Below, in pieces: positions 16,309-55,788 of a stretch of 64,000 nt of DNA. The DNA lies in IMG/VR virus record IMGVR_UViG_3300023213_000338; one strand, 5' to 3'. Source of the DNA: a virus. Its lineage: Duplodnaviria; Heunggongvirae; Uroviricota; Caudoviricetes. Position numbers and translations under genes: made by a program. The first letter of the stretch is position 1, and the number at the start of each line of letters is the position of its first letter. The notes under the pieces are model-generated. The model was not told the origin of the DNA and ran no database searches. It saw only the letters and a list, made by a program, of their open reading frames with translations.

Positions 16309-17661
16309 ATGGGACCAACAGGAGGAGGAGCAATTCCTTTACCAGGGTTAAATTTAGGATCAAATCAACCAACAGCAAGCGGATCTTTTGCTGTTCCTAC
16401 CACTCAACCGATTACTGGACAACAATTACTTAACAATGTAGCTAACGGAACTGCAAACGCTTTGCCTCAAGGCTTATGGCAAGGAACTCCTATTCGTAAT
16501 TTTCTTGGAGTAACTCCAGCTTATGCAGCTGGACCAGATGTATTAGGAGCAAATACTACTAATCAACCAAGTGCTATTGGAGCAGCTTTACAACAAGCTG
16601 GAAGACAAACAAATAATACTACTCCTGCTGGGCCTTCTGATTCAGAGCTTCAGCAACTTCAAAAAGTTGCAGCAAGTGGAGGATTAAATCCATCTCAACA
16701 AACTCAATATAATCAACTAATGGCTCAACAGCAACAAAGTCCAAGTGCCTCCGATCTACAAAATCAAGCTAATGCAGTTTATCAACCCCAACTTGATTAT
16801 CTCAATAATCTTGCTAATAATATTTTGCCACAAGGACGAAATCAAACAATTGCAAATCTTACTGGTGCTTATAATTCCCAAATTGGGCTATTGCCTGGAT
16901 TACAACAAAGTCTTATTAATCCAATTCAGCAAAACCAAAATCTTTTTGGTCAACAACAACAAAGTGCACTTTCTCAGGCAGCACAACAATATCAAGCATG
17001 GCAAAATCAAATTGCAGGACTTGGGGGAGGAACTTCAGCGGGTCCAGCAGCTCAAGAGCTTGCATACGAACAATTTTTAAGAGGACAACAAGATATCGCA
17101 AATCAAAATGCAAATGCACAATTAACCTTTGGAGGTCAACAAAATCAAGTTAATCTTTTTGTGCAACAGAAGCATGCGGATTTAGATAATTGGCTAAATG
17201 AAGCAAAAACAACAGTTCAAAATAATTTTCTCAACCAATTAGCTCAAGTTCAACAGCAACAAGGATTAACAGAGCAGGCTAGACAACAAGCTAATTTAGA
17301 TATTCTTGCAAATGTTAGAAATCAAAATGCATCAATTGAACTTGCAGATCGTAAATTTAGACAGGACTTGGAACTTTTTAGCACTCTAGCTAATCCAAAT
17401 TCAGTAGGAGGACAATTTAATCAAACAGGACAAATGGCAGCAGGGAATGCCTTAATTAATAATATGCAAAATCCACTTCCACAATACAACTTAACACCAA
17501 CTCCGCAAACAGCCCCAAACATGCCTAACTTTAGTTTCATAGGAAATTTTGGAGCTAATCCAAGAGAGCAAACACAACCAGCAAGCATCTTTGGTAATCT
17601 TCCTAATGTGACTTCTGGAGCTTTTGGAGTACAAGGTGGAGGACAAGGAGCAAACGCTTAA
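16309..17661 (+). CDS. Gln/Asn-rich virion protein (hypothetical)
   Basis: 450 aa, strongly Q/N/A-rich (QQQQSPSASDLQNQANAVYQPQ...). It is co-directional and tightly spaced with the giant protein gene. Confidence 0.55.
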   Translation: MGPTGGGAIPLPGLNLGSNQPTASGSFAVPTTQPITGQQLLNNVANGTANALPQGLWQGTPIRNFLGVTPAYAAGPDVLGANTTNQPSAIGAALQQAGRQTNNTTPAGPSDSELQQLQKVAASGGLNPSQQTQYNQLMAQQQQSPSASDLQNQANAVYQPQLDYLNNLANNILPQGRNQTIANLTGAYNSQIGLLPGLQQSLINPIQQNQNLFGQQQQSALSQAAQQYQAWQNQIAGLGGGTSAGPAAQELAYEQFLRGQQDIANQNANAQLTFGGQQNQVNLFVQQKHADLDNWLNEAKTTVQNNFLNQLAQVQQQQGLTEQARQQANLDILANVRNQNASIELADRKFRQDLELFSTLANPNSVGGQFNQTGQMAAGNALINNMQNPLPQYNLTPTPQTAPNMPNFSFIGNFGANPREQTQPASIFGNLPNVTSGAFGVQGGGQGANA

Positions 17662-20600: not shown

Positions 20601-23400
20601 TGAAGACATGGCTTCTTCAGCGATAACTGCTTTAGCAAATGCAAGGAAAGCTTTAAAACCAAATCAATACGCATTCGTAGTAGACTTAGCAGAAGGAAAA
20701 GTACCCATGATTGGAGATAAAGTTGATATGGGCTTAGGAGAGGCGCAGGCACAAGAAATTCCTCCAGAGATTAAGAATTGGTTACAGGCGTGGGATACGG
20801 TTCGTAAAGATATTGCTACAAAAGCAAAAGCTATCGATCTTCAGACTCTTGATCCCGAAGGAGGGATGACAGTTCCTTGGGAGGGAAGAGATAATTATTT
20901 CCCTCATTATGTAACCAAAGAGCAAATGGATCAAATTCGAGCCAATCCAGATGCGACTCTTGATGGCATTATTAGAAGCGGAAAAGCAAGTAATGCTTTT
21001 GAGGCGAGGCTGTATTTAGATAAGCAGTTAGATGCTTTGAGAGCAAGAAGGTTTGGGAATTTGGAAATGCATAGAGGAGATATTGATATTCCTTATTTAA
21101 AAGATCCTCGTATTGCCGAAGATTATGTTAATGGTGCATATAAAAGAATAGCTTATGCCAACCAATTTGGAGCTTTTAATCAAGATGGTCAACGCTTGGT
21201 TGACAACATGATTGGGGAAGGTCGTCCATATGAGTCAAATGTTGCATCTGATCTTTTAAAGCAGGTTACGGGTTATCGTCCACAAAGCCCAGAGGAACAA
21301 GGAGTTGGAATGATTGGGAGAGCTGTTCGTGCAATCGAAACCCCTATGAAGTTAGGCTTAATTTCTCTTCACCACGGAGGACAGGTCGCTTCAATTGCTG
21401 CAAGGTCAGGCCTTGGGAACATGCTCAGAACTGCTCCTCAAGCAGTTTCTTCTTTACTATTTGACAACCAATCTCCTTTTGCTAGAAATGCGGTCTTGGA
21501 GCTTCATGACCTTGATAATAAATATGATCTTTATGGAGGATCTTCTAGACTTGATCAAAAGTTTCTCGGAGTGGTTGGTTTCGACAGAGTAATTAAAACG
21601 CTTCGTGCATGGGGAGCAGACGCTGCCCAAATGCAAGCTAAACAATTCGAAACAAAACTAGACGATTCGACAACAGCAAGATTTCTTAAAGGGGCAGGAC
21701 TTGATTATGATGCAATAAGACAAAGAGGATATCTTACTCAACCAGAAGTTAATCAATATGCAAGATCAGCCTTAAAAGATACAGCCCTTCTTTTTCAGCC
21801 AGGAGATTTACCAAAGCTTTGGAATACGCCAGTTGGAAGACTCATGACTATGTTTAAAACCTTTGGCTATAATCAGGCTACAAAGTTTGTTCCATACATA
21901 TTTAGAGAAGCAAGAGCAGGAAATGTAGCTCCTGCAATCGCATTCTTGACATTGGGAACAGGAATTGGTACAGGTGAACAGGTATTTCAAAATTTAATTC
22001 AAAATAAACCTGCTCCTACGATTGGGAAAACAATTGTTCAAGGTGCACTTAGAGGAGCTAATCCTGGAATTATAGGAAGTACAATTGCAAATACAATTAT
22101 GTACCCACAATATACAGCGTCTAATTTGGTTGGTTTAGTTGGTGGACCCGTAGCCTCTGATGTCATGAATGTAGGAGGATTAGTAAATAATGCTTTAAAT
22201 CCTCCTCAAGGACAAAATCAGGTTCAAATTAAAAACAATCAAATAACTGCAAATAGAGATTTAATTAGAAATGTTCCTTTGGTTGGCTCAACTTTAGCAA
22301 ACACTCTTTTCCCATATAAAAGTTATGTTGGTAATCGTCCATCAGATGTTCTTTCGGGAATGCTTACTGGACAACCAATAACTCATGGAACTGGAGATTT
22401 TGCTTATCAAACAACACCAACAGTTGCTGATTTACTAAGACCAAATCCTACAGTTATCGCTCAAACAAAACAAGCAACAACTATTGCTAAAAATGAAAAT
22501 TCAATTAAAGCTGGATTAGATGCTAATAGACAAACCCAACTTGATACTATCAATAACCTACTTCAGCTTCCTTACAATGGGGGAAATCAGCTTGATAAAA
22601 TTCATGCTTATGGGTTGTTAGCTAATGATGGGCAATTAGCCCTAGCTAAATCACAAATGGAGGCATCTAATGCAAAGACTACAAAAGATCCAGTTAATCC
22701 TTTATGGCAAATGGGACTTGTTAATCCACAAGCACAAAATATTGTTTTGCAATATAAGGCTTTATTGCCAGCAGACCAAAAAGCTTTTAAATCAGATCCT
22801 ACAAATCTAGCTATCTTAAACTCATATAATGCAGCGGAAACAGATTATTACAACAGTCTTCCTCCAACCAAACAAACCCAACAATTTGGTATTGTAGCTC
22901 CGTCTCCTTCAAAAGATGTACAAAACTTACTAAATCAGGCTAAGTCAACAAAAAACTATTCTTTATACAATGATTCAAAAGTGCAAGCATATTTTGCTCA
23001 ACTTGATTATTATGACAATTATATTAATGGATTGGCGGGATTACCCCCTGGAGCTGGAGGGACAACCAAAGGAGGGGGTGGAGGATATGGCTCTTCCAAT
23101 GGTTATATAGGCAATTTACCTAGTAACTATTTGGAACGCGCTCAACTTAGATCCTTTATATCTCAGGCTATGATGCTTGAAAACCAACCTGTCCCAATGA
23201 GATTTAAGGGAGTAGGAGGGTTTCAGCAACAACTCAGACAAAATCCTATTAATATAAATGCATTAACAGGAAATGTAGCATTAGCTCCAAGAGAAAGAGT
23301 TTCACCTGTTTTGGGACAACCAAAAGTTGGAGGAGTACAGCTTAGGCCATATCAGCAACCTACGAGTATGCATGGGCTTGGTATGGCAGCAGTAAGATAA
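17671..23400 (+). CDS. giant virion protein (1909 aa), Q-rich, with an internal ParB/Srx-like DGHHR motif; candidate internal/ejection or tape-measure-like protein
   Basis: Uninterrupted 5.7-kb ORF. DITDGHHRFPISR at about aa 395-407 resembles the ParB/sulfiredoxin-fold signature. The N-terminus is Q/G-rich and the C-terminus has a Gly-rich GGTTKGGGGGYGSSNGY patch. Confidence 0.6.
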   Translation: MDQFGNALNQTGKFFTGIGQDIGNTIENVASGLRDNLSNDWQGLSKSIQQPQIPSINNPVAQDATSSLLPMILQQGQYALQGKNVFGQQQPWSLSNPFAPAPRINAANQINTGNPVADFALKTAVGIPQSILNVPSDIQQGVGQTGQDIQSGKILQPQVAVSDIASIGLPIATLATLPMGGEVAEQAMQQGFGQALKEGALTGTKFGAGFGFGAGLQSGRNITNPQQYLQNLATNVGAGSLAGLAVGGTLGGASNLIGRGLQNMKDNEAVTLPDGLRVTREGINKFMDLKPQIDANYEQYANDPNIWQKLLPQDNFNDWYKSQEMNHTPGGPEALKDANGYFTFVNPFDMPPKVAESGDVMKGVAFDQFVSNNGVSDLPVVKQTYDENGNPNPLDITDGHHRFPISRSLGHQLVPVVMLDDKAPLLSDSFNQIKSGTPMRIGITSAQQANPQVAQFLDQGAKQMEAGDINGAIKTLQNVTDTTKGQLTDLLNDGATQVSRLETNTHGLYFGTPEPSYWLDLNSNNSNETLASLAKFAKDNQQDSFITGTKSQAGQNLGLSMNFGRPLSNEEVVAVQRIANAEGLGLTINQRTGETYSYNISQFDGLNPEEFKTKAEQAITALQAGGFKFSKSLDKYNLGVYTKDNYDGLISKSNRFGQVGAGLQPEGTTGGNISAEQPKGNAGSVLPQNAQLSPQETSIVKGRDKSIDIKDATAKVTEASKDVPVLQDVVDNATNAVNGVSQVALKDPQSLAQKVADDKGRTLENNPDTIRSTILAMDKDKAQQALDILKQDPTVQVVKEKNKVNPKTGYDAQHLQVKLPSGQTAEIQAHTPESLQTREIGHDQYKGEGTKGGIPPPPENIPTTNIFGSPQNYAVLTGLDKNRQEAGLPIPQQQWKNPIAGKGDMGDIPPFDKYGNQGKGAFQPGGAIPETQTPKPIGGIKALAKSLFVGERKVLADSPSTNANLFIKRLEDAANNHEDMASSAITALANARKALKPNQYAFVVDLAEGKVPMIGDKVDMGLGEAQAQEIPPEIKNWLQAWDTVRKDIATKAKAIDLQTLDPEGGMTVPWEGRDNYFPHYVTKEQMDQIRANPDATLDGIIRSGKASNAFEARLYLDKQLDALRARRFGNLEMHRGDIDIPYLKDPRIAEDYVNGAYKRIAYANQFGAFNQDGQRLVDNMIGEGRPYESNVASDLLKQVTGYRPQSPEEQGVGMIGRAVRAIETPMKLGLISLHHGGQVASIAARSGLGNMLRTAPQAVSSLLFDNQSPFARNAVLELHDLDNKYDLYGGSSRLDQKFLGVVGFDRVIKTLRAWGADAAQMQAKQFETKLDDSTTARFLKGAGLDYDAIRQRGYLTQPEVNQYARSALKDTALLFQPGDLPKLWNTPVGRLMTMFKTFGYNQATKFVPYIFREARAGNVAPAIAFLTLGTGIGTGEQVFQNLIQNKPAPTIGKTIVQGALRGANPGIIGSTIANTIMYPQYTASNLVGLVGGPVASDVMNVGGLVNNALNPPQGQNQVQIKNNQITANRDLIRNVPLVGSTLANTLFPYKSYVGNRPSDVLSGMLTGQPITHGTGDFAYQTTPTVADLLRPNPTVIAQTKQATTIAKNENSIKAGLDANRQTQLDTINNLLQLPYNGGNQLDKIHAYGLLANDGQLALAKSQMEASNAKTTKDPVNPLWQMGLVNPQAQNIVLQYKALLPADQKAFKSDPTNLAILNSYNAAETDYYNSLPPTKQTQQFGIVAPSPSKDVQNLLNQAKSTKNYSLYNDSKVQAYFAQLDYYDNYINGLAGLPPGAGGTTKGGGGGYGSSNGYIGNLPSNYLERAQLRSFISQAMMLENQPVPMRFKGVGGFQQQLRQNPININALTGNVALAPRERVSPVLGQPKVGGVQLRPYQQPTSMHGLGMAAVR

Positions 23401-33696: not shown

Positions 33697-34506
33697 TTAT
33701 TTTGTTAAATTCAAGAACGGTATCGGAGTTCCTGCTCCCAAATAAGTTGGTAGCTCTCCATTCCATTTTTCTATAGAGAGTTTTTGTAAAATCTCTGAAG
33801 TAAGCGTCTGTTGCAAAAGCTTTTGGGCATCTGCTTGACCCTGAGCTGTAGCAACTGTTGCTTGAGCGTTTGCTTGGGCTGTTTTAACTTCATTTTCAGC
33901 TGCAATAGCATGCTGGTTTGCAACTTGAGCGTCCTCAATCGCTTGATTAAATTTATCTGAGAAATTAATATTTGTTATTGACAGATTGTCTATCACAACA
34001 TAATATTGTTTCATTTTTGTTTGTAAAACATTTAAAGCCGTAGTTGCAACATTATCTCTGTTTTTTTGAACATCTAAAGCTACATATTTTGAGACGGCAG
34101 CTTTAATAGAGTCTTTTGTATTATTATCTAAAACATTTGTTGCAATTGCATCTATATCTCCTACCCGTTGATAGATTTTATTAACTTCTCCTGCGTTTAG
34201 ATGCCAATTAACAGAAACTTTAATATCAACCTGTTGGGAATCTGAAGTTCCTGCACTATCTGCTCCTGTTTCAGCGTAGGTGCTGATTTGAGTTCTGACT
34301 GGCATGATAACAACATTTTCTATAAGAGGAACTCTAAAATGAACTCCTTCTCCCAAGATTCTGTTTTCAACTCCTGTAGTATTATTAAATACAACTCCTC
34401 TTTCACCTGCTCCTACAACTACAATTGGGAAAAAGGCTATAATAATTATTATTGCTATAAAAAGAGCAATTCCTACGATAATTAATCGCTGTTTGTTTTG
34501 ATTCAT
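33697..34506 (-). CDS. SPFH/band-7 (stomatin/prohibitin/HflK-C-like) membrane protein
   Basis: An N-terminal TM helix precedes VVVGAGERGVVFNNTTGV...HFRVPLIENVVIMPVRTQ (the SPFH core). The C-terminus is an Ala/Gln-rich coiled coil. Confidence 0.7.
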   Translation of the reverse strand: MNQNKQRLIIVGIALFIAIIIIIAFFPIVVVGAGERGVVFNNTTGVENRILGEGVHFRVPLIENVVIMPVRTQISTYAETGADSAGTSDSQQVDIKVSVNWHLNAGEVNKIYQRVGDIDAIATNVLDNNTKDSIKAAVSKYVALDVQKNRDNVATTALNVLQTKMKQYYVVIDNLSITNINFSDKFNQAIEDAQVANQHAIAAENEVKTAQANAQATVATAQGQADAQKLLQQTLTSEILQKLSIEKWNGELPTYLGAGTPIPFLNLTK

Positions 34507-42016: not shown

Positions 42017-42087
42017 TGCCGAGTCGACTAACGGTAAGTCAATTGCCCTTGGAGCAGTTTATCTACGTTCGAGTCGTAGCGCGGCAA
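42017..42087 (+). tRNA. tRNA-Gln (anticodon UUG), CCA not encoded
   Basis: Manual cloverleaf: acceptor tgccgag/cgcggca (one A-G mismatch), U8, D arm gact-aacggta-agtc, anticodon arm attgc-ccTTGga-gcagt, variable loop ttat, T arm ctacg-TTCGAGT-cgtag, discriminator A. Position 33 is C rather than U. Confidence 0.5.
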
Positions 42088-42095
42088 CTTAAAAT

Positions 42096-42242
42096 ATGCC
42101 ATATAAATCTAAAGCCCAACAGAAATTTTTCCACGCAAATAGGGCGAAGTTAGAATCCCAAGGAGTAAACGTTTCGGAATGGGATCAAGCTTCTAAAGGG
42201 AAAAAACTTCCACGTAGAGTTAAGAAAAAGGGTAAAAAATAA
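42096..42242 (+). CDS. small basic protein (48 aa: MPYKSKAQQKFFHANRAKLESQGVNVSEWDQASKGKKLPRRVKKKGKK)
   Basis: ATG-to-TAA ORF that exactly fills the gap between the two tRNAs. It is lysine-rich like the micro-ORF array. Confidence 0.35.
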   Translation: MPYKSKAQQKFFHANRAKLESQGVNVSEWDQASKGKKLPRRVKKKGKK

Positions 42243-42316
42243 GCGACTGTAGTTAATTGGCTTAACGTTTCCCTTCCAAGGAAAGGAAGAGAGTCCGATT
42301 CTCTCTAGTCGCTCCA
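42243..42316 (+). tRNA. tRNA-Gly (anticodon UCC) with encoded CCA
   Basis: Manual cloverleaf: acceptor gcgactg/tagtcgc (one GU), D arm gtta-attggct-taac, anticodon arm tttcc-cTTCCaa-ggaaa (perfect stem, U33, A37), variable loop ggaa, T arm gagag-tccgatt-ctctc, discriminator T, CCA. Confidence 0.55.
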
Positions 42317-46413: not shown

Positions 46414-46534
46414 TAAATCTTGCTCGAGCTAAACAATTTTTGTGAATATTACATTTTTCTCTTTGTAAATCAAAAACTTTCTCAAAATTCTCTTTAAACT
46501 TCTTTTCTATAGCTTTAGGTAAAGTGTTTTTCAT
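46319..46534 (-). CDS. hypothetical small protein
   Basis: 71-aa ORF whose stop overlaps the next gene. Confidence 0.3.
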   Translation of the reverse strand: MKNTLPKAIEKKFKENFEKVFDLQREKCNIHKNCLARARFSAPIRAEDFDSIIDFLSYVYKRGREDERNER

Positions 46535-47133
46535 TTATTTGGAAATATACTTTTTCCGTTCCAAGGACAATCTTTTAAACATTCTTTTTTGTGTAGCTTT
46601 TTCCAACCATCCTCTGTTGTAGGAATATCACCTAAGACTGGTTTTAAAAGTTTTAAACGAATTCCTACTTCTTCCTTTGGTTTATTTTTCTTTATATAAT
46701 TTATTCTTGCCCTGATTGGTTCAGTAAGCCATTCATATAAAATTGTCTCGTGAATATGCCACCAATAATCAGTTTGATCTGAGTCAATATTTTTTGCACT
46801 TGCAAGATCTATTTGACGAAAAACCATTCCTTGAACATTTGTTCCTGAAAAATCTGTTCTCTCAAGATGTGTTCCCCAAAAAATAACATCTCTAAGATCT
46901 GCTCCTGAAAAATCTACTCCTTCCATGTTTGCTCCTCGAAAATTTGCTCCTCTAAGATTTGCTTTTTGAAGATTTGCTCCCATAAGATCTGTTGCTACAA
47001 GATTTGCTCTCCAAAGTTTTACTCCTCTTTTAACTGCTTCTTCAAGAGTATCTTTGATAGTATTGTTTTCTTTTTCATATTCAAACAATATTTCTCTCGT
47101 TATCCATTCTTTGATTTGTATTTTACTTTTCAT
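46531..47133 (-). CDS. pentapeptide-repeat protein (Qnr/MfpA-like DNA-mimic fold)
   Basis: ANLVATDLMGANLQKANLRGANFRGANMEGVDFSGADLRDVIFWGTHLERTDFSGTNVQGMVF forms tandem A(D/N)LxX pentapeptides. Confidence 0.65.
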   Translation of the reverse strand: MKSKIQIKEWITREILFEYEKENNTIKDTLEEAVKRGVKLWRANLVATDLMGANLQKANLRGANFRGANMEGVDFSGADLRDVIFWGTHLERTDFSGTNVQGMVFRQIDLASAKNIDSDQTDYWWHIHETILYEWLTEPIRARINYIKKNKPKEEVGIRLKLLKPVLGDIPTTEDGWKKLHKKECLKDCPWNGKSIFPNK

Positions 47134-49011: not shown

Positions 49012-49040
49012 ATTATACAACAATTAATATTTTTTGTCAA
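49012..49040 (-). promoter_or_regulatory. minus-strand sigma70-type promoter (TTGACA-N17-TATAAT)
   Basis: Reverse complement reads aTTGACAaaaaatattaattgttgTATAATa. Confidence 0.5.
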
Positions 49041-49143: not shown

Positions 49144-50625
49144 TTATCTGTGAATTAACGATCGCATCATTTCGATCATTTTTAAAGGTAACTGTTCAAT
49201 TTTAGGAACTGCGATATATGTGGGATAAAATTGCTTCAAATAATCGCTTGTTAGCCCTACTCCAATTGCAATAAGAGTCGCGTTTTTTTCTTTTTCAATT
49301 TTGTGGATTAGGGTTCGCATTGTGCTTGAATTAACTCCTATTCCGCCATCAGTCATCATAAGAACAATGTTATCATCGTATTTATTAATATTTTTATAAG
49401 TTACATCTAAGGCAAGAAACTCATTGTTTCCCCCCCCACGCATTTTACGATAAACAGAAAGATCGGAAATTACTTGTGTCGTATGGTTGAATCTGATATA
49501 TTTTATTTCAAACTTTAATCTTTTCATAGCTTCGTTAATTAAAAAAGATGCAATATATGTTTGAGCATGAAAATATCCTTCCATGCTTCCGCTTTCATCC
49601 AGAACAAAAGTTATTGAGTAATGAGGCGTATCTGGATTTGTGCGTTTGCTAAAAAGCCTAGTTTCATCAGAAACTGTAACTTTGTATGCGTTTTTAGATA
49701 GTAACCTTCCCTTTTTATGTGCTCCTGTGTAACGAACTGAAGCTTTTTCTTTAAGAATATCTGCTAGGCGTTGTGTTAGGGTATGAATATATCCTCCCAA
49801 AAGAGACCTTAATTCTTCATCTGAGGGAATGTCTGTTAAATATTCTTCCATTTTTCCCTCAAACGACCTATCGGGTTTTCCCTCCCTGAGTTCTTCTTCA
49901 ATGGATTTATTACCATCCGCTTTGCCCTCTCTTTGTTCTTTCTCTAATTGTTTATCGGCTTCGTCTAGGAAGGGTTTTGCGTGTCTATAGATATATTGGT
50001 CAACCAATTGTTTAAGAACTTCTGTTGAAGAGGCATTGAGTATCTTCCCAACACAGGCTTGAATATCTGAATCTGCGGAACTTAAAGCTTTTTTAACTTC
50101 TGTAGAGTTATAGTCTCGTAGATCTCTGGCTAGATAATAAAGATTATTTCTACTCCACTCAACTATTTTCCCAGAATAAAATCTTTGTAAATTTGTGCTA
50201 TCCAGAAATTCCATTAATTTAGTTCGTTCTAACATTTTAAGTTTAGCCAAAGAGATTCTTCCTATTAAGCCCCAAGTAGAACAATGAGCCAGAGCTTGTA
50301 TTGCAAAACCTCTATATTGTTGCATAAGCAAATATTCAATTCTCATATCTTCAAATTGGTTATAAACATATTGCATCGAGGGATGTTTTATTAAGTTTGG
50401 GGTATCTTTTTGAATTTTATCTGTGAATAAAATATGTCCAACTTCATGGATAATGATTCCTTTTGCTACCAATGCGGGCGCAAAGACGAGATCGGTGGGA
50501 TTATATGTAACTTCCCTTTTGGCGACGTTCGTAACCCACTTTTTCCCTTCTTTGAATGTAATTTTATTCTCGTTGGATAAAGCTGTAATAAGAGCTTCAA
50601 GATAAGATCGAGTTGTCCTAAACAT
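49144..50625 (-). CDS. von Willebrand factor A (vWA) domain protein with N-terminal HExxH metallopeptidase-like motif; last gene of the Ubl/AAA operon
   Basis: TFVLDESGSMEG is the MIDAS DxSxS motif. IIHEVGHILF is an N-terminal HExxH. It is co-oriented with the MoxR gene with a 15-nt gap. Confidence 0.65.
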   Translation of the reverse strand: MFRTTRSYLEALITALSNENKITFKEGKKWVTNVAKREVTYNPTDLVFAPALVAKGIIIHEVGHILFTDKIQKDTPNLIKHPSMQYVYNQFEDMRIEYLLMQQYRGFAIQALAHCSTWGLIGRISLAKLKMLERTKLMEFLDSTNLQRFYSGKIVEWSRNNLYYLARDLRDYNSTEVKKALSSADSDIQACVGKILNASSTEVLKQLVDQYIYRHAKPFLDEADKQLEKEQREGKADGNKSIEEELREGKPDRSFEGKMEEYLTDIPSDEELRSLLGGYIHTLTQRLADILKEKASVRYTGAHKKGRLLSKNAYKVTVSDETRLFSKRTNPDTPHYSITFVLDESGSMEGYFHAQTYIASFLINEAMKRLKFEIKYIRFNHTTQVISDLSVYRKMRGGGNNEFLALDVTYKNINKYDDNIVLMMTDGGIGVNSSTMRTLIHKIEKEKNATLIAIGVGLTSDYLKQFYPTYIAVPKIEQLPLKMIEMMRSLIHR

Positions 50626-50640
50626 CTGTCAGTTCCTCCA

Positions 50641-51939
50641 TTAAAGTGATTTTTTTTGTGTTGGATTAGAAGTTTTTTTATTAGAGGTAGTAATTTTTTT
50701 GGATGCTTTTTGGATGATTTTTTCGATTTGTTGATATTCTTTGATTTGGTCTTGGAGTTCTTCATTTTTTTTTCTTTCGGCTTCGATTTCTGTTTTCTGA
50801 CCTTCAATTACCTTCTTTATCTCGTCTGCCGTTAAATTAAGCTTCTCCAAAGTTTTTTCTAATTCGTCTATAGCTTTTAATTGCGTAGCCAATTCTCTTT
50901 CTTTATCTAAAATCAATCCTTCTGCTTTTTCTGCACGATGTTTCAATGTCTCAAATTCTTTTTTGGTAGTAATTATAGGAGTTGTTCCTTTATCTTCAGC
51001 TTCAGCTTGTTTATTAATGGCTAAGAAAAAATCTAATAAGGCTTTTTGTTCGTCTTTGTTATTGGTTTTTTTAACAACAGTTGTACTCCAAGCATTTTGT
51101 GGCTTCATGCCAGAGGAGATAAGTTTAGCCGTATTAAGGAGGCTACGAGTGGAGACATATAGGAATATCTTTTGTTCCAAATAGTCTTTTCTAGCCATCG
51201 TAGCTGTTATTACCAATATATTTGCCATCTCCTCAGAGATTTTTGTACGGCTAACCAACAATTCCTTTTCTTTGTCTGGAGCTAACGTATCAACTGATAT
51301 TATGATTGGGAAACGATCCAAAAAAGCCTTATTCATTGATTTTGTGCCTTCATAATCGGGGTTACAAGTTGCAAAAACTCTAAAATTTGGATGAGGATAA
51401 ATAACTTCTCCGTTAGGAAGCGTTATTCTCCTATCTTCGTCTAAAAGTCCATGAAGAATAAACAAGCAATCTGGGGTGGTTGCATTAATCTCATCTATAA
51501 CCAAAATTGCTCCGCGTTGCATGGCATTGGTAATAACTCCGTGTTCGTAATATGTCTCATTGCCTTTATCGGTCGCTCGGACGGACTTGCTCCCTATGAG
51601 CTCATCTGGGGTCGAAAACCCATGCATGTTTACACGCACATAGGGTTGTTGTCTGAGATATGCCAATCGTCTAACGGCTGAAGTTTTGGCTACCCCCGTC
51701 TCTCCAATTAATAAAACAGGTAGATTCTCCTTTATCCCCAAAGCAATTGCATCTTTGTCGTTTATTGGTAGAATAACCTCAAGTGCTTCTTTTGGAACTA
51801 ACGGATCGTTTTGCTCGTTGATTTTTTCCAACTCAATAGAACCAAATAGGAAAGAGTTTTCTTTTACTACCGCCAACGCTTTTGGAGCTTCTGGTTCTGG
51901 AGTAATAGAATCTGTTTTTTTAATTTTAGTTTTTTTCAT
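50641..51939 (-). CDS. MoxR-family AAA+ ATPase with C-terminal coiled coil
   Basis: LLIGETGVAKT is Walker A, AILVIDEIN is Walker B, FATCNP is sensor 1, and FLDRF carries the arginine finger. This is the MoxR/RavA arrangement paired with a vWA protein. Confidence 0.8.
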   Translation of the reverse strand: MKKTKIKKTDSITPEPEAPKALAVVKENSFLFGSIELEKINEQNDPLVPKEALEVILPINDKDAIALGIKENLPVLLIGETGVAKTSAVRRLAYLRQQPYVRVNMHGFSTPDELIGSKSVRATDKGNETYYEHGVITNAMQRGAILVIDEINATTPDCLFILHGLLDEDRRITLPNGEVIYPHPNFRVFATCNPDYEGTKSMNKAFLDRFPIIISVDTLAPDKEKELLVSRTKISEEMANILVITATMARKDYLEQKIFLYVSTRSLLNTAKLISSGMKPQNAWSTTVVKKTNNKDEQKALLDFFLAINKQAEAEDKGTTPIITTKKEFETLKHRAEKAEGLILDKERELATQLKAIDELEKTLEKLNLTADEIKKVIEGQKTEIEAERKKNEELQDQIKEYQQIEKIIQKASKKITTSNKKTSNPTQKKSL

Positions 51940-53060
51940 TTTTTATCTCCAATAACTTTATCGATGTTGATTTCCCTATCTTCATCTAAGAGTGAGTAGT
52001 CTTGCTTCATTGAAGTCCCATTACTAACAGAAGAACTTGGTTTATCAGATAAAGCAGAGAAGCTTTCTTTTTCTTGTTTCTCTTTTTTAATTGCATCGAC
52101 AAAATATTTCATTGAGATTGTTTTAGCCTTATCATAAGCACATTTTCTTGCAGCCATTAAGATTGTATTTTTAATATTGCCACCACTCAAAGGAATTTTA
52201 GCAAGTATTTCAAAGTCAACGTCTTTTCCAATAGGAGCTTTCTTAGGTATTAGACGTTCCCAGATTAGCTTTCTTTCAGACTCATTTGGAAAAGGAAATT
52301 CGATTTTGGTTGTGATACGACGTTCTAAAGCAGGATCAAGTTTGCCTAAGCGATTAGTGGTAAGAATAACGATTCCTTCATAGCGTTCAATTTCGGAAAG
52401 CAAGATATTAACTTGAGAAGATACGATTGGTCCAACAGCATCTCGATTGTACAAAAGCGAATCACACTCGTCAATCAAGATTACATCTTTCTTGTTTTCA
52501 GGTGAGCTTTCGGCACTTATAAAAGCCTTAGTAATATTCTTTTCAGTTTCTCCCCAAAGGTAGGAACTCATTGTATTCATGTCCAGTTTCTTAAGACCTA
52601 GCCCTAATTCATTAGCAATCGCTTCAGCCATAAGACTTTTCCCCGTTCCCGAAGACCCATAGAAAAGAAGCGTCATTCCCATTCCCTTTTCCAAAACTTC
52701 ATTGAAGCCCCATTCCTCAAAGATCAGTTGCTTGTTTTGTTCCTGAGCAATTGTAGCTTGAATCTCCTTTTTCTTTTCTGGGCTAAGTACTACGCTTTCA
52801 ATGTTAAGGTTCTTGATAGGATTTTCTTTAATAAAAACAATTGACTTATCTTTTTCAATTCTCATTTTATATCCCATTGGAGAAACAATTTCTTCAACCG
52901 CTTCTTTTGCCAATTCAACATTGAAGTATGGATAAAGATCAGTTAGCTTAAATTCTTTCGGGTGGGTATGAATAATTTCTTGAATTGCACTTTTTAAAGT
53001 AGTCTGATTAAGATGGGTAAAAACTGGAAGTGGCTTAGGTTGATTAATATTATTTGGCAT
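51936..53060 (-). CDS. classical-clade AAA ATPase (Cdc48/FtsH/proteasomal-ATPase-like unfoldase module)
   Basis: LLFYGSSGTGKSLMA is Walker A, VILIDECDSL is Walker B, and VILTTNRLGKLDPALERR is the second region of homology. Confidence 0.8.
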   Translation of the reverse strand: MPNNINQPKPLPVFTHLNQTTLKSAIQEIIHTHPKEFKLTDLYPYFNVELAKEAVEEIVSPMGYKMRIEKDKSIVFIKENPIKNLNIESVVLSPEKKKEIQATIAQEQNKQLIFEEWGFNEVLEKGMGMTLLFYGSSGTGKSLMAEAIANELGLGLKKLDMNTMSSYLWGETEKNITKAFISAESSPENKKDVILIDECDSLLYNRDAVGPIVSSQVNILLSEIERYEGIVILTTNRLGKLDPALERRITTKIEFPFPNESERKLIWERLIPKKAPIGKDVDFEILAKIPLSGGNIKNTILMAARKCAYDKAKTISMKYFVDAIKKEKQEKESFSALSDKPSSSVSNGTSMKQDYSLLDEDREINIDKVIGDKK

Positions 53061-53061
53061 G

Positions 53062-53388
53062 TTAGTTAACTATCCTTTCTTTTTTCTTTTCCTGTTTTTC
53101 TTTTAACGCCTGCTCGATATCAAATTCAGGCTCTTTCGGTTCTGGAGTTGGATTGGTTTTTGGTTTTACTCCCATTGCCTTATATATTTCATTCATAATA
53201 TCTTTAATATCGATTCCCATTTTGGCCAATTCATCGCCAGCTGCAATATATAGAGCTTGAGATAGGATTTGCTGAAACTCTTTACTTTCTCTTAAACCCT
53301 CGACTAATAAATCTATAATTTCAATTTCTTTACCTTGTAATTCAAACCTAACTCCTTTTGCCTCATGCTCCAAATATAGTTTTGCCAT
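53062..53388 (-). CDS. small acidic/helical protein of unknown function within the Ubl operon
   Basis: 108-aa ORF lying 1 nt from the AAA gene start. Confidence 0.45.
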   Translation of the reverse strand: MAKLYLEHEAKGVRFELQGKEIEIIDLLVEGLRESKEFQQILSQALYIAAGDELAKMGIDIKDIMNEIYKAMGVKPKTNPTPEPKEPEFDIEQALKEKQEKKKERIVN

Positions 53389-53400
53389 AGTGTGTGGGTT

Positions 53401-54000
53401 TTATCCCTCTTCTCCTATAAAAAGGTCTTTTAAACCCTTCTTAATCGCCCTACCAACGTCTTTTATGTCCTCGCTGGTAAATAATTCGTCGCCTCGGACT
53501 TTTTCTTTGATTTCTTTTATAATCTCTTCTTTCATTTCTTTGTCTCCAAGATCAACTTCGAATTCAACTTGATCAAACTCATATCGGAAAGGAGCGAATA
53601 AATCTACCCTACATAAATTATCACCCTTATGGTTTGTAACAAGAGAGATTATATAATTATGCGAATCCATTTCTGAATCCCATTCTTCAATTGTTGCAGT
53701 ATCTATGCCAGAAAAGAAAGCTCCCATTCTGTTATGTGAATGCCACCAAAGCTTCCAATCACTCATTTTTTCTCCCTTGGACAATAAATCGCTAAAGAAT
53801 TTTCCAAGATCAGTTCTGTTTAAAACAGTGTTTGCTCCGCTAACTTTTTGTTTAAAGATTCGTATATCCTCAACATAAAAGATTGTTTCCCCATTGATAT
53901 ATTCCGATCTGACTTTGCCAAGCCCAGAGATTTCAAGTTCCGTGTTCTCAACGTAGTGTCTGAGTTTCTGGTACAGTTTGATTGGGATAATAACTTTCAT
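53401..54000 (-). CDS. JAB/MPN (JAMM) metallopeptidase, predicted Ubl-processing/deconjugating enzyme
   Basis: WWHSHNRMGAFFSGID is an exact H-x-H-x7-S-x2-D JAMM motif. An upstream conserved Glu is present in TELEISGLG. Confidence 0.8.
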   Translation of the reverse strand: MKVIIPIKLYQKLRHYVENTELEISGLGKVRSEYINGETIFYVEDIRIFKQKVSGANTVLNRTDLGKFFSDLLSKGEKMSDWKLWWHSHNRMGAFFSGIDTATIEEWDSEMDSHNYIISLVTNHKGDNLCRVDLFAPFRYEFDQVEFEVDLGDKEMKEEIIKEIKEKVRGDELFTSEDIKDVGRAIKKGLKDLFIGEEG

Positions 54001-54003
54001 AAT

Positions 54004-54804
54004 TTAAGATTGCCTAGCTTCTAACGATCGGATAGCGTCTTCTAAGGCTTGTAATCTTTGATGAATTGCATTTGTAAAATTAATATCTCTAGTATAAGGA
54101 TAAGGAACATTAAGTTCAGCAAGAAGCATATTTCTTTTCGCTCTCATCGTGTCTAATCCATTTAATTGATTTTGATAGGTTGCTTGTGTGTATTGAGCTT
54201 CCTGTATCCCAGAAGGAGCTGTTTGTGTTCTTGGTTGTGGTTGATAAGATGCTTGTCTTATTCCCCGATCGTACTGATCAAAATCAAATCCTCTTGGGCA
54301 TGGAGTTGCTCCTTTTAACCATTCATCCCAATTTGTATAACCAGCATCCTCGCTTTTTACGCTTGCAATATAATATAAACAAGTGTCAACGAGTTTTTGA
54401 AGATTTTGAGCTACCCATAATTTCTCAATCTCTAACTTTATTCCATATTTTCCACTCCCCCAACAAGGTTTTGTGTCACTAATTGTCGGATTATCTAAAT
54501 TATAGTAGCGTTGTGAAATATTTAAAATTCTTATCATTTCAGTTGAGTTTTTAAAATTTATTCTTATTTGGTATTGACCAGCAACTTTGTTTCTTCTATT
54601 TACTTTAATATATATCGGTTGGGTTGTAATCGTGATTCTATTCTGACTGTCTACAGAAACATTTTTTATCATGTATTGTTTTTTAATCTTTATTAGTAAG
54701 TCCCTGTCTTTCCAAGGAATGATTTTCTGTTTGAGGTTATTAATCCCTCGCTCAATGGTTGCGAGGGGATTAAGTAACATTAATTTTCTTAAAGAAAGTG
54801 CCAT
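54004..54804 (-). CDS. candidate E2-like (UBC-fold) conjugating protein; unknown fold otherwise
   Basis: 266-aa ORF located between the Ubl and JAB genes. YYNLDNPTISDTKPCWGSG places a Cys about 9 residues after an NP, reminiscent of HPN...C. A helix (WVAQNLQKLVDTCLYYIAS) follows. This is a contextual inference only. Confidence 0.35.
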   Translation of the reverse strand: MALSLRKLMLLNPLATIERGINNLKQKIIPWKDRDLLIKIKKQYMIKNVSVDSQNRITITTQPIYIKVNRRNKVAGQYQIRINFKNSTEMIRILNISQRYYNLDNPTISDTKPCWGSGKYGIKLEIEKLWVAQNLQKLVDTCLYYIASVKSEDAGYTNWDEWLKGATPCPRGFDFDQYDRGIRQASYQPQPRTQTAPSGIQEAQYTQATYQNQLNGLDTMRAKRNMLLAELNVPYPYTRDINFTNAIHQRLQALEDAIRSLEARQS

Positions 54805-55044
54805 TTATTTTTCCCCTCCTTCGATTTGTCTTGTCAGGATAACCTGATCCCCATCTTTAAGTTTATGTTCCAAAACATTACCTGTTAATTCAGACCCATT
54901 AAGCTGAACGGTCTCATTTGATTTTCTACTTATTCCCATTGCTATTAATGCTTCACCCACTGTTTGTGCTCCAGTAAGAGGAATTTGTTTTGCATCGCCT
55001 CCCATTTTTCCAACTGTGACAAATATATTTTTCTTTCTAGCCAT
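54805..55044 (-). CDS. ThiS/MoaD-like ubiquitin-like beta-grasp protein with C-terminal GG followed by an EK tail
   Basis: 79 aa ending ...LKDGDQVILTRQIEGGEK. It aligns with ThiS ...VQDGDQILLFQVIAGG. The two extra residues after GG imply peptidase processing. Confidence 0.65.
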   Translation of the reverse strand: MARKKNIFVTVGKMGGDAKQIPLTGAQTVGEALIAMGISRKSNETVQLNGSELTGNVLEHKLKDGDQVILTRQIEGGEK

Positions 55045-55058
55045 ATATCCTCCTTTCT

Positions 55059-55748
55059 TTAGATTAATGAATAACTTGGAATATCAAGCGTAATCTCGCT
55101 TCTTATTTTCTCTTTTGTGGCAAAACGTTTGATAATGTTTGTTACAAGACCAGCACAAATTAGAGTGTTATAGGCAATTGCCCGAGCCGTGCATTTTTCA
55201 CCACTTGGCTTAATTTTAGAAAACAGTTTATTATGATAATTTTCCATTTGTTCAAAATCTTGTGTATTGATAGTATAGATTCTAATAAGCTCAGCTCCCA
55301 TACGAGCATCAATATAAAGCTTTAATGTTTTTAACGTTTCTTTGCTTCTAACAATCTGTCCCCAGATTTCCTTGCGTTGCAAGATTGAATCTACGGCAGA
55401 GATAATTACGGTTGGAGCTTTATATTCTTTAGATAAGATGTATTCTTGAAAAGAGGTTATAACTCCAGTAATTGAAGCTCCAGAGAGGGAATGAATGATG
55501 TGTTTTAAAGAATTGACTTTTAAATCCTCTATCTGGGGGGAATACAATTGAGAGGGGGCATTGTGTTTTTCTGTTTTATCATAGTCTATAGCTGTTAAAT
55601 TGGAGCATCCCATTTTTGAAAGAGATAAAGCTGTCCAAGAACCTATTCCGCCTACGCCTATTAATGTTATTGGAAAGTTTAATTGTGAAGGTTTGACAAT
55701 ATCCAATTGCCTAAGAAAAACTTGTCGGTCATCAATGTTCTGTCTCAT
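55059..55748 (-). CDS. minimal E1-like adenylyltransferase (ThiF/MoeB/UBA fold)
   Basis: LDIVKPSQLNFPITLIGVGGIGSWTALSLSKMGCSNLTAIDYDKTEKHNAPSQL has the Rossmann GxGxxG and the D.D.VE.SN..RQ signature. ISAVDS is the Mg/ATP Asp. It is 229 aa with no rhodanese domain. Confidence 0.65.
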   Translation of the reverse strand: MRQNIDDRQVFLRQLDIVKPSQLNFPITLIGVGGIGSWTALSLSKMGCSNLTAIDYDKTEKHNAPSQLYSPQIEDLKVNSLKHIIHSLSGASITGVITSFQEYILSKEYKAPTVIISAVDSILQRKEIWGQIVRSKETLKTLKLYIDARMGAELIRIYTINTQDFEQMENYHNKLFSKIKPSGEKCTARAIAYNTLICAGLVTNIIKRFATKEKIRSEITLDIPSYSLI

Positions 55749-55759
55749 TTCTTGTTATT

Positions 55760-55788
55760 ATTATACAATATTGTAGAGGAAAAATCAA
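55760..55788 (-). promoter_or_regulatory. minus-strand sigma70-type promoter (TTGATT-N17-TATAAT) driving the E1-Ubl-JAB-AAA operon
   Basis: Reverse complement reads cTTGATTtttcctctacaatattgTATAATa, 12 nt upstream of the E1 start codon. Confidence 0.55.

What the first reader, a model, noticed from the sequence alone, without database searches (positions are those of the whole stretch)
54004..54804. 266-aa ORF between Ubl and JAB as candidate non-canonical E2
Its position in the operon, between the Ubl and the JAB peptidase, is where E2-like genes sit in E1-E2-JAB-Ubl cassettes. The sequence has a beta-rich N-terminal region, then YYNLDNPTISDTKPCWGSG (an NP with a Cys at +9, comparable to HPN...C spacing), then a helical segment. 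There is no database-level support available here.
Basis: inference. Interest (0 to 1): 0.55.

Follow-up and report, generated by a model that had tools for sequence, protein, structure and literature searches.

The report
Phage-encoded E2-like Ubl-conjugating enzyme
The 266-aa gene between a ubiquitin-like protein and a JAB peptidase in this phage-like genome is very probably a new, highly diverged family of E2 ubiquitin-conjugating enzyme, which would give an uncultured virus of prokaryotes its own complete E1, Ubl, E2 and deubiquitinase cassette.

The parts
54004..54804 (-). ORF-X, 266 aa: E2-like (UBC-fold) protein, the subject of the finding
54250..54717 (-). UBC-like core domain, residues 30-185 (alpha1, beta-sheet, active-site loop, alpha2-alpha4)
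   Evidence: This is the conserved region of the family. pLDDT is mostly above 90. The region aligns to E2 residues about 5-147.
54463..54465 (-). Codon of Cys114, the predicted catalytic (thioester) cysteine in the motif PCWG
   Evidence: Present in 135 of 135 homologues covering the column. Aligned to UbcH5 Cys85 by hhalign. Codon verified.
54484..54495 (-). Residues 104-107, DNPT: the HPN-like motif. Family variants are DSPT, DHPH, DHPC, HHPH and, rarely, DHPN
   Evidence: Motif counts. Aligned with E2 H75-P76-N77.
54004..54249 (-). C-terminal extension, residues 186-266: Q-rich linker plus a predicted helical hairpin. Alignable only with the closest homologue and much less conserved than the core
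   Evidence: The region is largely gapped in the family alignment.
54805..55044 (-). Ubl precursor, 79 aa, SAMP2/ThiS-like beta-grasp, ending ...QIEGG-EK
   Evidence: Pfam ThiS and Ub-Mut7C hits are weak in the window protein but occur in 10 and 11 of 12 orthologues. The best PDB hits of the profile are P. furiosus SAMP2, TtuB, ThiS and MoaD.
54814..54819 (-). Gly76-Gly77 of the Ubl: the predicted mature C-terminus, followed by a 2-residue tail (EK). The GAAGGAGGG codons also form the Shine-Dalgarno-like sequence for ORF-X
   Evidence: The first Gly is invariant in 12 of 12 orthologues and GG occurs in 10 of 12. All carry tails of 1-9 residues after the Gly. Sequence shown.
55059..55748 (-). 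Minimal E1 (ThiF/MoeB/UBA5-like adenylation domain), 229 aa
   Evidence: Pfam ThiF 5e-14. PADLOC Cap2 'E1-E2' models hit the E1 part. Best PDB match is UBA5 at 2e-6. GxGGxGS, DxD, AVDS and D-x-R are conserved.
55191..55193 (-). Codon of E1 Cys186, a candidate E1 thioester cysteine
   Evidence: Invariant in 9 of 9 orthologous E1s. Codon verified. Equating it with ThiF C184, MoeB C187 or UBA5 C250 is an inference from position only.
53401..54000 (-). JAB/JAMM metallopeptidase, 199 aa: predicted Ubl-processing enzyme and deconjugase
   Evidence: Weak Pfam Prok-JAB hit. Weak alignments (E 0.04-0.1) to Rpn11/PSMD14 and CSN5 span the Glu and the JAMM motif. Orthologues at 38-51% identity lie next to X in all loci whose sequence extends past the 3' end of X.
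53701..53742 (-). JAMM zinc-site motif HSHNRMGAFFSGID (H-x-H-x7-S-x2-D)
   Evidence: Read directly from the sequence. Aligned with Rpn11 HSHPGFGCWLSGVD.
55760..55788 (-). Candidate sigma-70-type promoter (TTGATT-17-TATAAT) just upstream of the E1 start
   Evidence: This is weak evidence: promoter-like sites are no more frequent in this AT-rich region than in shuffles (25 found, 26.8 expected).

Best explanation
ORF-X is a diverged member of the UBC (E2) superfamily. It is the conjugating enzyme of a virus-encoded, four-gene ubiquitin-like modification cassette (E1, Ubl, E2, JAB). The proposed mechanism has five steps. (1) The JAMM peptidase trims the 2-residue tail (EK) from the 79-aa Ubl precursor and exposes Gly77. 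(2) The small ThiF/UBA5-like E1, presumably a homodimer, adenylates that Gly with ATP and probably takes it onto its invariant Cys186. (3) The Ubl passes by transthioesterification to Cys114 of ORF-X, which sits in the loop after the HPN-like motif, immediately before a short helix and the crossover helix, as in canonical E2s. (4) The E2~Ubl thioester is resolved by a lysine of a so far unknown phage or host target. The variable N- and C-terminal extensions of the family probably provide targeting or localisation, since no E3 gene is seen. (5) The same JAMM enzyme can reverse the modification. Shown here: gene order and its conservation, the predicted fold, the invariant Cys and its alignment to the E2 catalytic Cys, the Gly/Gly-Gly-plus-tail Ubl, the intact JAMM motif and the E1 motifs. 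Inferred: every chemical step, the E1 cysteine assignment, and the targets.
For: Family and invariant Cys: 136 relatives were found. C114 is present in 135 of 135 covering sequences. T61, G76, N95, P106 and G116 are each conserved in more than 90% of rows.
Profile-profile: probability 90%, E 1.7e-6, 122-134 columns. G76 aligns with G48, the (H/S)P motif with HPN, C114 with C85, and SPN with PNP. Controls scored 25 or less, against 40.3.
Synteny: E1, Ubl, X and JAB occur together in the window and in L001, L002, L006, L007, L008, L011 and L014. Partial versions are in L012, L015 and L016. L003 has the order Ubl-X-JAB-E1. Protein identities are 25-60%.
Ubl: it is SAMP2/ThiS-like, with an invariant Gly followed by a tail.
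JAMM and E1: the JAMM motif is intact. E1 Cys186 is invariant.
Precedent: a JAB DUB trims Ubl tails of up to 9 residues in Type II Bil systems, and E1 Cys and E2 Cys are both required for conjugation there (PMC10557695).
Operon packing: the genes are tightly packed and translationally coupled.
Against: No curated E2 model (Pfam UQ_con, Prok-E2_A-E, UEV, RWD; NCBIfam; PADLOC; PHROGs) hits any of up to 110 members.
Shallower profile comparisons were not significant: probability 23% against a single E2 sequence, and 1-2% with a 44-sequence profile. In the latter the Cys was not aligned to Cys85.
The HPN Asn is rarely conserved, and the window protein also lacks the His (DNPT).
SAMP-type systems conjugate without any E2, and Gly-Gly-plus-tail Ubls with a JAMM peptidase also occur in pure sulfur-carrier pathways, so only the E2 fold argues specifically for a conjugation cascade.
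No target, no E3 and no biochemical data exist.
Confidence: 0.78

Rival explanations
1. ORF-X has a UBC/RWD/UEV-like fold but is not catalytic. It would be an adaptor, a scaffold (many members have an N-terminal coiled coil, as kinetochore RWD proteins do) or the substrate of an E2-independent, SAMP-like conjugation carried out by the E1 alone.
Against: The only invariant residue of the family is a cysteine at the E2 active-site position. Catalytic E2s outrank UEV and RWD proteins in both fold searches. Non-catalytic UEV and RWD domains characteristically lack that Cys.
Confidence: 0.08
2. The cassette is a sulfur-relay system rather than a protein-conjugation system. The E1 would thiocarboxylate the Ubl after JAMM trimming, as in CysO/Mec+, QbsE/QbsD or TtuB/TtuC. 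ORF-X Cys114 would act as a persulfide carrier or acceptor for a thiolated nucleoside, cofactor or DNA modification useful to the phage.
For: The Ubl matches ThiS, MoaD and TtuB as well as SAMP2. The E1 is a minimal MoeB/ThiF-type domain. Gly-Gly plus a tail, together with a JAMM peptidase, is also typical of sulfur-carrier systems (established knowledge).
Against: ORF-X is not rhodanese-like or otherwise similar to a known sulfurtransferase. Its fold and motif order match E2s. No cysteine desulfurase, rhodanese or thiolation enzyme was noticed among the neighbours examined in the window or in the related loci.
Confidence: 0.07
3. ORF-X is a cysteine-dependent enzyme of another kind that only superficially resembles the UBC fold in the prediction, for example a second Ubl-specific peptidase or an isopeptide-forming ligase.
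For: The sequence shows an invariant Cys, a frequently conserved His (H105 in about half of members), N95 and D104. All structural evidence comes from a predicted model.
Against: His105 is replaced by Ser or Asn in about half of the family, including the window protein, so there is no conserved Cys-His dyad. No peptidase or transglutaminase fold appears among the top structural matches. Independent sequence-profile evidence points to E2s.
Confidence: 0.04

Closest known systems
Canonical UBC-fold E2 enzymes (Pfam UQ_con; e.g. UbcH5/UBE2D, UBE2S, UBE2C, Pex4)
   Different: No UQ_con HMM hit. The HPN Asn is mostly H, T or C, and the His is often S or N. There is an extra beta-hairpin and about 6 extra residues between beta4 and the HP motif. 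CWGN follows the Cys instead of L-D/S. Family-specific N-terminal coiled coil and variable C-terminal extensions are present. The gene is encoded by a virus of prokaryotes next to a minimal E1.
Bacterial Bil (ISG15-like) systems, BilABCD Types I and II (Hor et al. 2023 preprint 10.1101/2023.09.04.556158; Chambers et al. PMC10557695)
   Same: The same four activities lie in one operon: Ubl, E2 with catalytic Cys, JAB DUB and E1. The Ubl carries a short tail after the conserved Gly that the JAB enzyme removes in Type II Bil.
   Different: The Bil E1 is a large IAD+AAD+CYS-domain enzyme with its Cys in an inserted domain; here the E1 is a single domain of 220-229 aa. Type I BilA has two Ubl domains. 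BilB has a conserved His after the Cys, which is not seen here. Bil is a chromosomal anti-phage system, whereas this cassette sits in phage-like contigs. No sequence-level match to Bil proteins was observed or tested directly.
Type II CBASS Cap2/Cap3
   Different: Cap2 is an E2-E1 fusion that conjugates the CD-NTase itself and has no separate Ubl. There is no CD-NTase or effector here. ORF-X scores better against eukaryotic E2s than against Cap2.
Archaeal SAMPylation (UbaA E1, SAMP1-3, HvJAMM1/PfJAMM1) and Thermus TtuB/TtuC
   Same: The Ubl profile is closest to P. furiosus SAMP2 (1RWS/5LDA) and TtuB. Both use a single-domain E1 and a JAMM protease.
   Different: Those systems have no E2, and their Ubls double as sulfur carriers. 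This cassette always includes the UBC-like gene.
Archaeal eukaryote-like E1/E2/RING operons (Caldiarchaeum subterraneum; PMC5654768, PMC3082918)
   Same: They are compact prokaryotic operons with Ub-like, E1-like, E2-like and Rpn11-like JAMM genes.
   Different: They include a small RING E3 and a true ubiquitin. Their E2 is recognisable by standard models. They are cellular, not viral.
Lambda/T1 tail-assembly TAPI (Ubl) and TAPK (JAB + NlpC/P60) (Iyer et al. 2006, PMC1779556)
   Same: It is the one previously described phage-encoded pairing of a Ubl with a JAB peptidase.
   Different: It has no E1 and no E2. The Ubl is part of a tail-assembly protein. The cassette here lies among non-structural genes.

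Membership tests
UBC/E2 superfamily (fold level) | UBC alpha/beta fold: N-terminal helix, antiparallel beta-sheet, long active-site loop, crossover helix alpha2, then alpha3 and alpha4 | tested here: met
UBC/E2 superfamily (fold level) | Conserved catalytic Cys in the loop between beta4 and alpha2, equivalent to UbcH5 Cys85 | tested here: met
   Cys114 is present in 135 of 135 covering homologues. hhalign aligns it with Cys85 at probability 90%, well above shuffled controls. Shallower profiles were ambiguous.
UBC/E2 superfamily (fold level) | HPN motif about 10 residues upstream of the Cys | tested here: inconclusive
   Pro106 is present in 128 of 136. His is present in about half of the family and Ser in about a third; the window protein has Asn. 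The third position is H, T or C, and N in only about 4 members. Spacing to the Cys is 9 rather than 10. This is a degenerate variant of the motif, as in several prokaryotic E2 families (PMC1779556).
UBC/E2 superfamily (fold level) | Forms a thioester with a Ubl handed over by a cognate E1 | not testable with these tools
   Only genomic association is available: E1, Ubl and JAB are adjacent in every related locus with enough flank.
Pfam UQ_con / Prok-E2_A-E / UEV / RWD sequence families | Scores above the gathering threshold of the family HMM | tested here: not met
   No hit to any of these families in the window protein or in up to 110 members, even at E<=10 for 44 domain sequences. NCBIfam, PADLOC and PHROGs also gave none. 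It is therefore not a member of any of these existing sequence-defined families.
Bil (BilABCD) anti-phage system | Multidomain E1 (inactive and active adenylation domains plus an inserted CYS domain) | tested here: not met
   The E1 is 229 aa with a single ThiF domain. The Bil E1 architecture is described in PMC10557695.
Bil (BilABCD) anti-phage system | Ubl, E2, JAB DUB and E1 in one operon, with DUB-dependent trimming of the Ubl tail | tested here: inconclusive
   The gene content and the Gly/Gly-Gly-plus-tail Ubl are met. Trimming itself is not testable here. Homology of ORF-X to BilB was not tested directly because no BilB sequence was at hand.
Bil (BilABCD) anti-phage system | Chromosomal defence system of bacteria | tested here: not met
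   The window carries phage-type genes (tail-fibre-assembly PHROG, ParB, CobS/CobT-like pair, tRNAs). Relatives lie on IMG/VR viral contigs of 59-82 kb. A pattern scan of 185,579 species genomes found none.
Type II CBASS (Cap2/Cap3) | E2-E1 fusion protein next to a CD-NTase and an effector | tested here: not met
   E1 and the E2-like protein are separate genes with a free-standing Ubl between them. No CD-NTase was seen among the neighbours.
Bub (oxyester) pathways | E1 and E2 lack catalytic Cys and use Ser; a serine-protease BubE is present | tested here: not met
   Cys is invariant in both the E2-like protein and the E1. The peptidase is a JAMM enzyme, not a Ser-His enzyme. Bub features come from the abstract of PMC11601596.
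ThiS/MoaD/SAMP beta-grasp Ubl (for the neighbouring 79-aa gene) | Beta-grasp domain ending in a conserved Gly or Gly-Gly | tested here: met
   The best PDB hits of the profile are SAMP2 (E 0.004), TtuB, ThiS and MoaD, all weak. Pfam Ub-Mut7C hits 11 of 12 and ThiS 10 of 12 orthologues. The first Gly is invariant in 12 of 12. The fold itself was not modelled.
JAMM/MPN+ metallopeptidase (for the downstream 199-aa gene) | E ... H-x-H-x7-S-x2-D zinc-binding motif | tested here: met
   HSHNRMGAFFSGID and an upstream Glu in 'ELEISGLG' are present. They align with Rpn11 and CSN5.

The most novel reading that the evidence does not exclude
Uncultured tailed phages carry their own complete ubiquitin-like conjugation machinery. 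It would be built from a minimal UBA5/ThiF-type E1, a SAMP-like Ubl precursor, an Rpn11-like JAMM peptidase and a previously unrecognised E2 family. By fold and motifs that family is nearer to canonical eukaryotic UBC enzymes than to the known bacterial defence E2s. The phage would use the system during infection to tag host or virion proteins, for example to disarm host defences, redirect proteolysis or control assembly. That would make ubiquitin-like conjugation a weapon on the viral side of the conflict between prokaryotes and their viruses, and would add a viral reservoir to the question of how E2s evolved.
Probability: 0.45. Interest if true: 0.8.

Novelty: new variant of a known kind. 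Interest (0 to 1): 0.64.

Why it matters
E1-E2-Ubl-JAB cassettes in prokaryotes are so far known as cellular systems: Bil, CBASS type II, Bub and the archaeal operons. The characterised ones defend bacteria against phages. Here the same logic appears on phage-like contigs, with the smallest E1 of any of these cascades. Its E2 family has at least 136 clusters at 50% identity, and no curated library used here (Pfam, NCBIfam, PHROGs, PADLOC) recognises it. I found no description of it in the searchable literature. If the chemistry is confirmed, three things follow. It adds a new E2 family to the UBC superfamily and allows annotation of a family of metagenomic proteins that currently have none. 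It shows that viruses of prokaryotes can write, not only erase, ubiquitin-like marks. It also offers a compact system of four small proteins for studying, or engineering, how a single-domain E1 hands a Ubl to an E2. The mechanism is directly testable with recombinant proteins.

Tried and rejected
1. Single-sequence searches of ORF-X against Pfam, PHROGs, PADLOC and PDB sequences gave nothing meaningful.
2. The word-indexed homology search found only the protein itself and one relative. Repeating it with the 136-sequence alignment was swamped by low-complexity and coiled-coil words and returned 3 proteins.
3. AF2 with a 2-sequence alignment gave an unusable model, pLDDT 50.
4. A profile built on full-length proteins and searched against the PDB returned only coiled-coil noise. 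The domain-only profile returned nothing relevant.
5. hhalign with shallow profiles (A3 against one E2; A4 against one or five E2s) was not significant. Only the full 135-sequence domain profile reached 90%.
6. tblastn of two family members against 50,697 deposited phage genomes found no match.
7. Pattern scans of IMG/VR with single proteins failed, and the 44-sequence alignment had no usable conserved stretch. A 10-sequence alignment then found 3 viral contigs and 8 metagenome loci, 3 of them duplicates. It found none in GTDB species genomes.
8. The afdb50 fold library was unavailable.
9. The exact-sequence contig look-up for the window protein found no record.
10. I considered that the downstream AAA, MoxR and vWA genes belong to the cassette. 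I set this aside because their homologues were not found next to the cassette in other loci by tblastn, although L006 has an analogous, non-homologous MoxR and vWA pair upstream.
11. I considered a Cys-His peptidase reading and rejected it because His105 is not conserved.
12. Five full-text literature searches found no description of a phage-encoded E1-Ubl-E2-JAB cassette or of this family. One candidate preprint, checked for these terms, had nothing relevant. Absence from this library is not proof of absence.

Full report
**Observation.** The minus strand between 55748 and 53401 carries four tightly packed genes. The first is a 229-aa ThiF-family E1 at 55059-55748 (Pfam ThiF 5e-14). The second is a 79-aa ORF at 54805-55044 ending ...QIEGG-EK, with weak ThiS and Ub-Mut7C hits. 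The third is the 266-aa ORF in question at 54004-54804. The fourth is a 199-aa ORF at 53401-54000 with an exact JAMM motif, HSH-x7-S-xx-D. The Ubl stop abuts the ATG of ORF-X. The GAAGGAGGG codons of the Ubl's E-G-G form a Shine-Dalgarno-like sequence for ORF-X, and the ORF-X stop is 3 nt from the JAB ATG. The quoted peptide YYNLDNPTISDTKPCWGSG is residues 100-118, and Cys114 is encoded at 54463-54465.

**No existing model recognises ORF-X.** Pfam, PHROGs, PADLOC and PDB-sequence searches with the single protein returned nothing meaningful. The word-indexed search found only the protein itself and one relative at 41-42% identity, P0002. That relative sits on a 2.5-kb contig with the same E1-Ubl-X-JAB order.

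**A family with one invariant residue.** An exhaustive HMMER search with the two-sequence profile found 136 cluster representatives at E<=1e-3, 71 of them at E<=1e-10. Lengths run from 136 to 735 aa with a median of 417. The shared domain corresponds to window residues about 30-185. It is flanked in most members by an N-terminal coiled-coil or low-complexity region and a variable C-terminal region.
- Cys114 is present in 135 rows. The one exception, P0115, is a fragment whose sequence degenerates before the motif, consistent with a frameshift.
- T61, G76, N95, P106 and G116 are each conserved in more than 90% of rows.
- The consensus around the Cys is Y-D-(H/S)-P-(H/T/C)-I-x-x-(T/G)-x-(P/C)-C-(W/L)-G-N.
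- It is followed by a helix and then L-V-x-D-x-I-D-Y-I-x-S-P-N-D-x-x-G-Y.
- Motif variants are DSPT 35, DHPH 29, DHPC 18, HHPH 7 and DHPN 3. The window's DNPT occurs twice.

**Predicted fold.** With two sequences AlphaFold2 failed (pLDDT 50). With the 136-sequence alignment and no templates it gave pLDDT 82.4 and pTM 0.65, with residues 30-180 mostly above 90. The order of elements is:
- helix 30-41
- strands between 46 and 113
- Cys114
- short helix 122-131
- long helix 135-147
- helices 159-165 and 175-179
- a lower-confidence C-terminal helical hairpin at 200-265

**Sequence-profile evidence.** Shallow comparisons were not significant. The full-length A3 profile against one E2 gave probability 23%, with Cys aligned to Cys85. 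The 44-sequence A4 profile gave 1-2%, with the Cys not aligned. Using all 135 domain sequences (Neff 6.6) against an alignment of five human E2s, hhalign gave probability 90%, E 1.7e-6 and score 40.3 over 122-134 columns, covering E2 residues about 5-147. The alignment is collinear:
- helix alpha1 with alpha1
- G76 with G48
- the YQIRIDF strand with VFFLTIHF
- (H)P-x-I with HPN-I
- Cys114 with the catalytic Cys85
- the SPN loop after the long helix with the E2 PNP loop

Controls scored far lower. The reversed template scored 12.9. The maximum over 30 column shuffles was 21.1, and over 30 block shuffles 25.2. Unrelated alignments (Ubl, E1) scored 15.3 or less. Their alignment does reproduce the known invariant H75-P76-N77, C85, W93 and P95.

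**Genomic association.** tblastn of the window's proteins against all fetched loci shows E1, Ubl, X and JAB in that order in L001, L002, L006, L007, L008, L011 and L014.
- L012, L015 and L016 are truncated contigs with the expected partial sets.
- L003 has the order Ubl-X-JAB-E1 (ORFs).
- Protein identities to the window are 25-60%, so these are independent lineages.
- L006, L007 and L008 are IMG/VR viral contigs of 59-82 kb.
- No relative was found in 50,697 deposited phage genomes by tblastn.
- None was found in 185,579 species-representative genomes by pattern scan.

The window itself looks like a very divergent phage. It has a tail-fibre-assembly PHROG, ParB, an SPFH/Band_7 gene, a CobS/CobT-like MoxR and vWA pair, two tRNAs, and many ORFs with no hit in any library searched.

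**The partners.**
- Ubl: twelve orthologues align over about 80 residues. The first Gly of the terminal motif is invariant and GG occurs in 10 of 12. Every one carries a tail of 1-9 residues after it, for example EK, LIK, GK, QEC, R, KK, IFYDGTSL.
- The Ubl profile's best PDB hits are P. furiosus SAMP2 (1RWS/5LDA, E 0.004-0.012), TtuB, ThiS and MoaD. Pfam Ub-Mut7C and ThiS hit 11 and 10 of the 12.
- E1: GxGGxGS, DxD, AVDS, D-x-R and Cys186 are invariant in nine orthologues. The closest solved relative by sequence is UBA5 at 2e-6. Equating Cys186 with the crossover-loop Cys of ThiF, MoeB or UBA5 is an inference from position.
- JAB: the Glu and the HxHx7SxxD motif align weakly (E 0.04-0.1) with Rpn11/PSMD14 and CSN5.

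**Mechanism proposed.** The JAMM peptidase trims the Ubl tail to expose Gly77. The E1 adenylates the Ubl and probably forms a thioester on Cys186. The Ubl then passes to Cys114 of the E2-like protein and on to target lysines. The JAMM enzyme can reverse the modification. The chemistry is inferred by analogy. In Type II Bil systems the JAB DUB removes up to nine residues after the conserved Gly, and the E1 Cys and E2 Cys are both required for conjugation (PMC10557695). No E3-like gene is conserved. The variable extensions of the E2-like proteins are therefore the likeliest specificity elements. In the window protein that is a C-terminal helical hairpin; in long forms a shared C-terminal region; in the closest short homologues an N-terminal hydrophobic helix. 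Targets and biological purpose (counter-defence, host takeover, assembly control) cannot be deduced from the sequence.

**Rivals.**
- A non-catalytic UBC/RWD-like adaptor or substrate is disfavoured, because the single invariant residue is the active-site Cys and because catalytic E2s outrank UEV and RWD proteins.
- A sulfur-relay reading fits the ThiS-like Ubl, the small E1 and the JAMM trimming. It does not explain a conserved UBC-fold partner, and I noticed no sulfur-mobilising gene nearby.
- A different Cys enzyme is disfavoured, because there is no conserved Cys-His dyad and no such fold appears among the matches.

**Comparison with known systems.** At fold level ORF-X meets the tests I could run for the UBC superfamily: fold and catalytic-Cys position. 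The HPN motif is only partly conserved. ORF-X fails membership of every sequence-defined E2 family in Pfam, NCBIfam and PADLOC.
- The cassette works like Bil, but it is not a Bil system: the E1 is single-domain and the setting is viral.
- It is not CBASS type II: there is no E2-E1 fusion and no CD-NTase.
- It is not Bub: it has Cys rather than Ser, and a JAMM rather than a Ser-His protease.
- It differs from SAMPylation by having an E2.
- Iyer et al. 2006 described phage Ubl-JAB pairs only in tail assembly, without an E1 or an E2.
- Five full-text searches found no description of this cassette or family.

**Verdict.** I rate it a new variant of a known kind: a new E2 family within a minimal, virus-borne E1-Ubl-E2-JAMM cassette. 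Confidence in the E2 assignment is about 0.78. Interest is 0.64.

Noticed in passing
L002:794-1393; L006:9847-10425; L008:10747-11325; also L011 and L014: Many related cassettes carry a second, shorter ThiF-like gene (192-199 aa) with GxGxxGS, DxD and a conserved Cys, near or just after the JAB gene. The window has no copy; tblastn hit only the E1 itself. It could be a heterodimeric E1 partner or a second activating enzyme.
   Followed up: partly
P0002, P0003, P0004, P0067 (N-termini listed): The closest short-form homologues of ORF-X begin with a hydrophobic, transmembrane-like helix, for example LALAGVIILCISFFWSIF. The window protein's N-terminus (MALSLRKLMLLNPLATIERG) does not look membrane-spanning. 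Some family members may be membrane-anchored E2s.
   Followed up: no
window 54805-54830 (minus strand): The Shine-Dalgarno-like GGAGG for ORF-X is made by the codons for the Ubl's functional E-G-G C-terminus (GAA GGA GGG GAA AAA TAA ATG). One stretch of DNA thus encodes both the conjugation site and the ribosome-binding site of the next gene.
   Followed up: no
window 49144-53388 (minus strand): Directly downstream on the same strand, with no terminator-like site found, lie four genes: a 108-aa ORF with no hits, a classic-clade AAA ATPase (IetA-like in PADLOC, 5e-31), a MoxR/CobS-like AAA_5 and CbbQ_C protein, and a vWA/CobT-like protein. L006 has a non-homologous MoxR and vWA-metallopeptidase-like pair just upstream of its E1. 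Whether these ATPases cooperate with the Ubl cassette is open.
   Followed up: partly
L008:6061-6522: A second small JAMM/MPN-like ORF of 153 aa, with motif HTHPPGMTGLSFRD, lies immediately upstream of the E1 in this relative, in addition to the regular JAB after X.
   Followed up: no
L007:7208-7675: A 155-aa Cys/His-rich ORF resembling an HNH endonuclease is inserted between the Ubl and X genes in this relative, interrupting the otherwise contiguous cassette.
   Followed up: no
window 33697-34506 (minus strand); L002:1505-2320: An SPFH/Band_7 protein (phrog_200) in the window is 41% identical to a Band_7 gene that lies between the extra ThiF-like gene and the E1 in L002. This suggests the contigs belong to one broad phage lineage.
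   Followed up: partly
window 49012-49040 (minus strand): A perfect sigma-70 consensus (TTGACA-17-TATAAT, 12 of 12) sits just downstream of the vWA gene, ahead of the next block of small minus-strand ORFs. Together with the strong GGAGG ribosome-binding sites, it hints at a bacterial rather than an archaeal host.
   Followed up: no
window 17671-23400 (+), 5970-8063 (+), 10948-12900 (+), 16309-17661 (+): Several large ORFs, including one of 1909 aa, have no significant PHROG hit and no meaningful Pfam hit. The phage is very distant from characterised ones. Also present are a pentapeptide-repeat protein (46531-47133), a NUMOD3-containing ORF (8184-9242), and tRNA-Gln and tRNA-Gly (42017-42316).
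   Followed up: no
L006:7662-9185, L007:7677-9047, L008:7512-9221 (C-terminal halves of the X proteins): By eye, the long-form E2-like proteins seem to share a recognisable C-terminal region, for example ...RAAYYF(L/M)(D/G)L(I/L)... in L006 and L008. It is absent from the 266-aa window protein and may be a target-recognition module.
   Followed up: no
L012 (contig name contains 'Hain-H51-01um'); L008/L013 (C687J35021): At least one related contig comes from a sample whose record name suggests a 0.1-um groundwater size fraction. I read this only from the contig name. If correct, the hosts might be ultra-small groundwater prokaryotes. This is pure speculation and was not tested.
   Followed up: no
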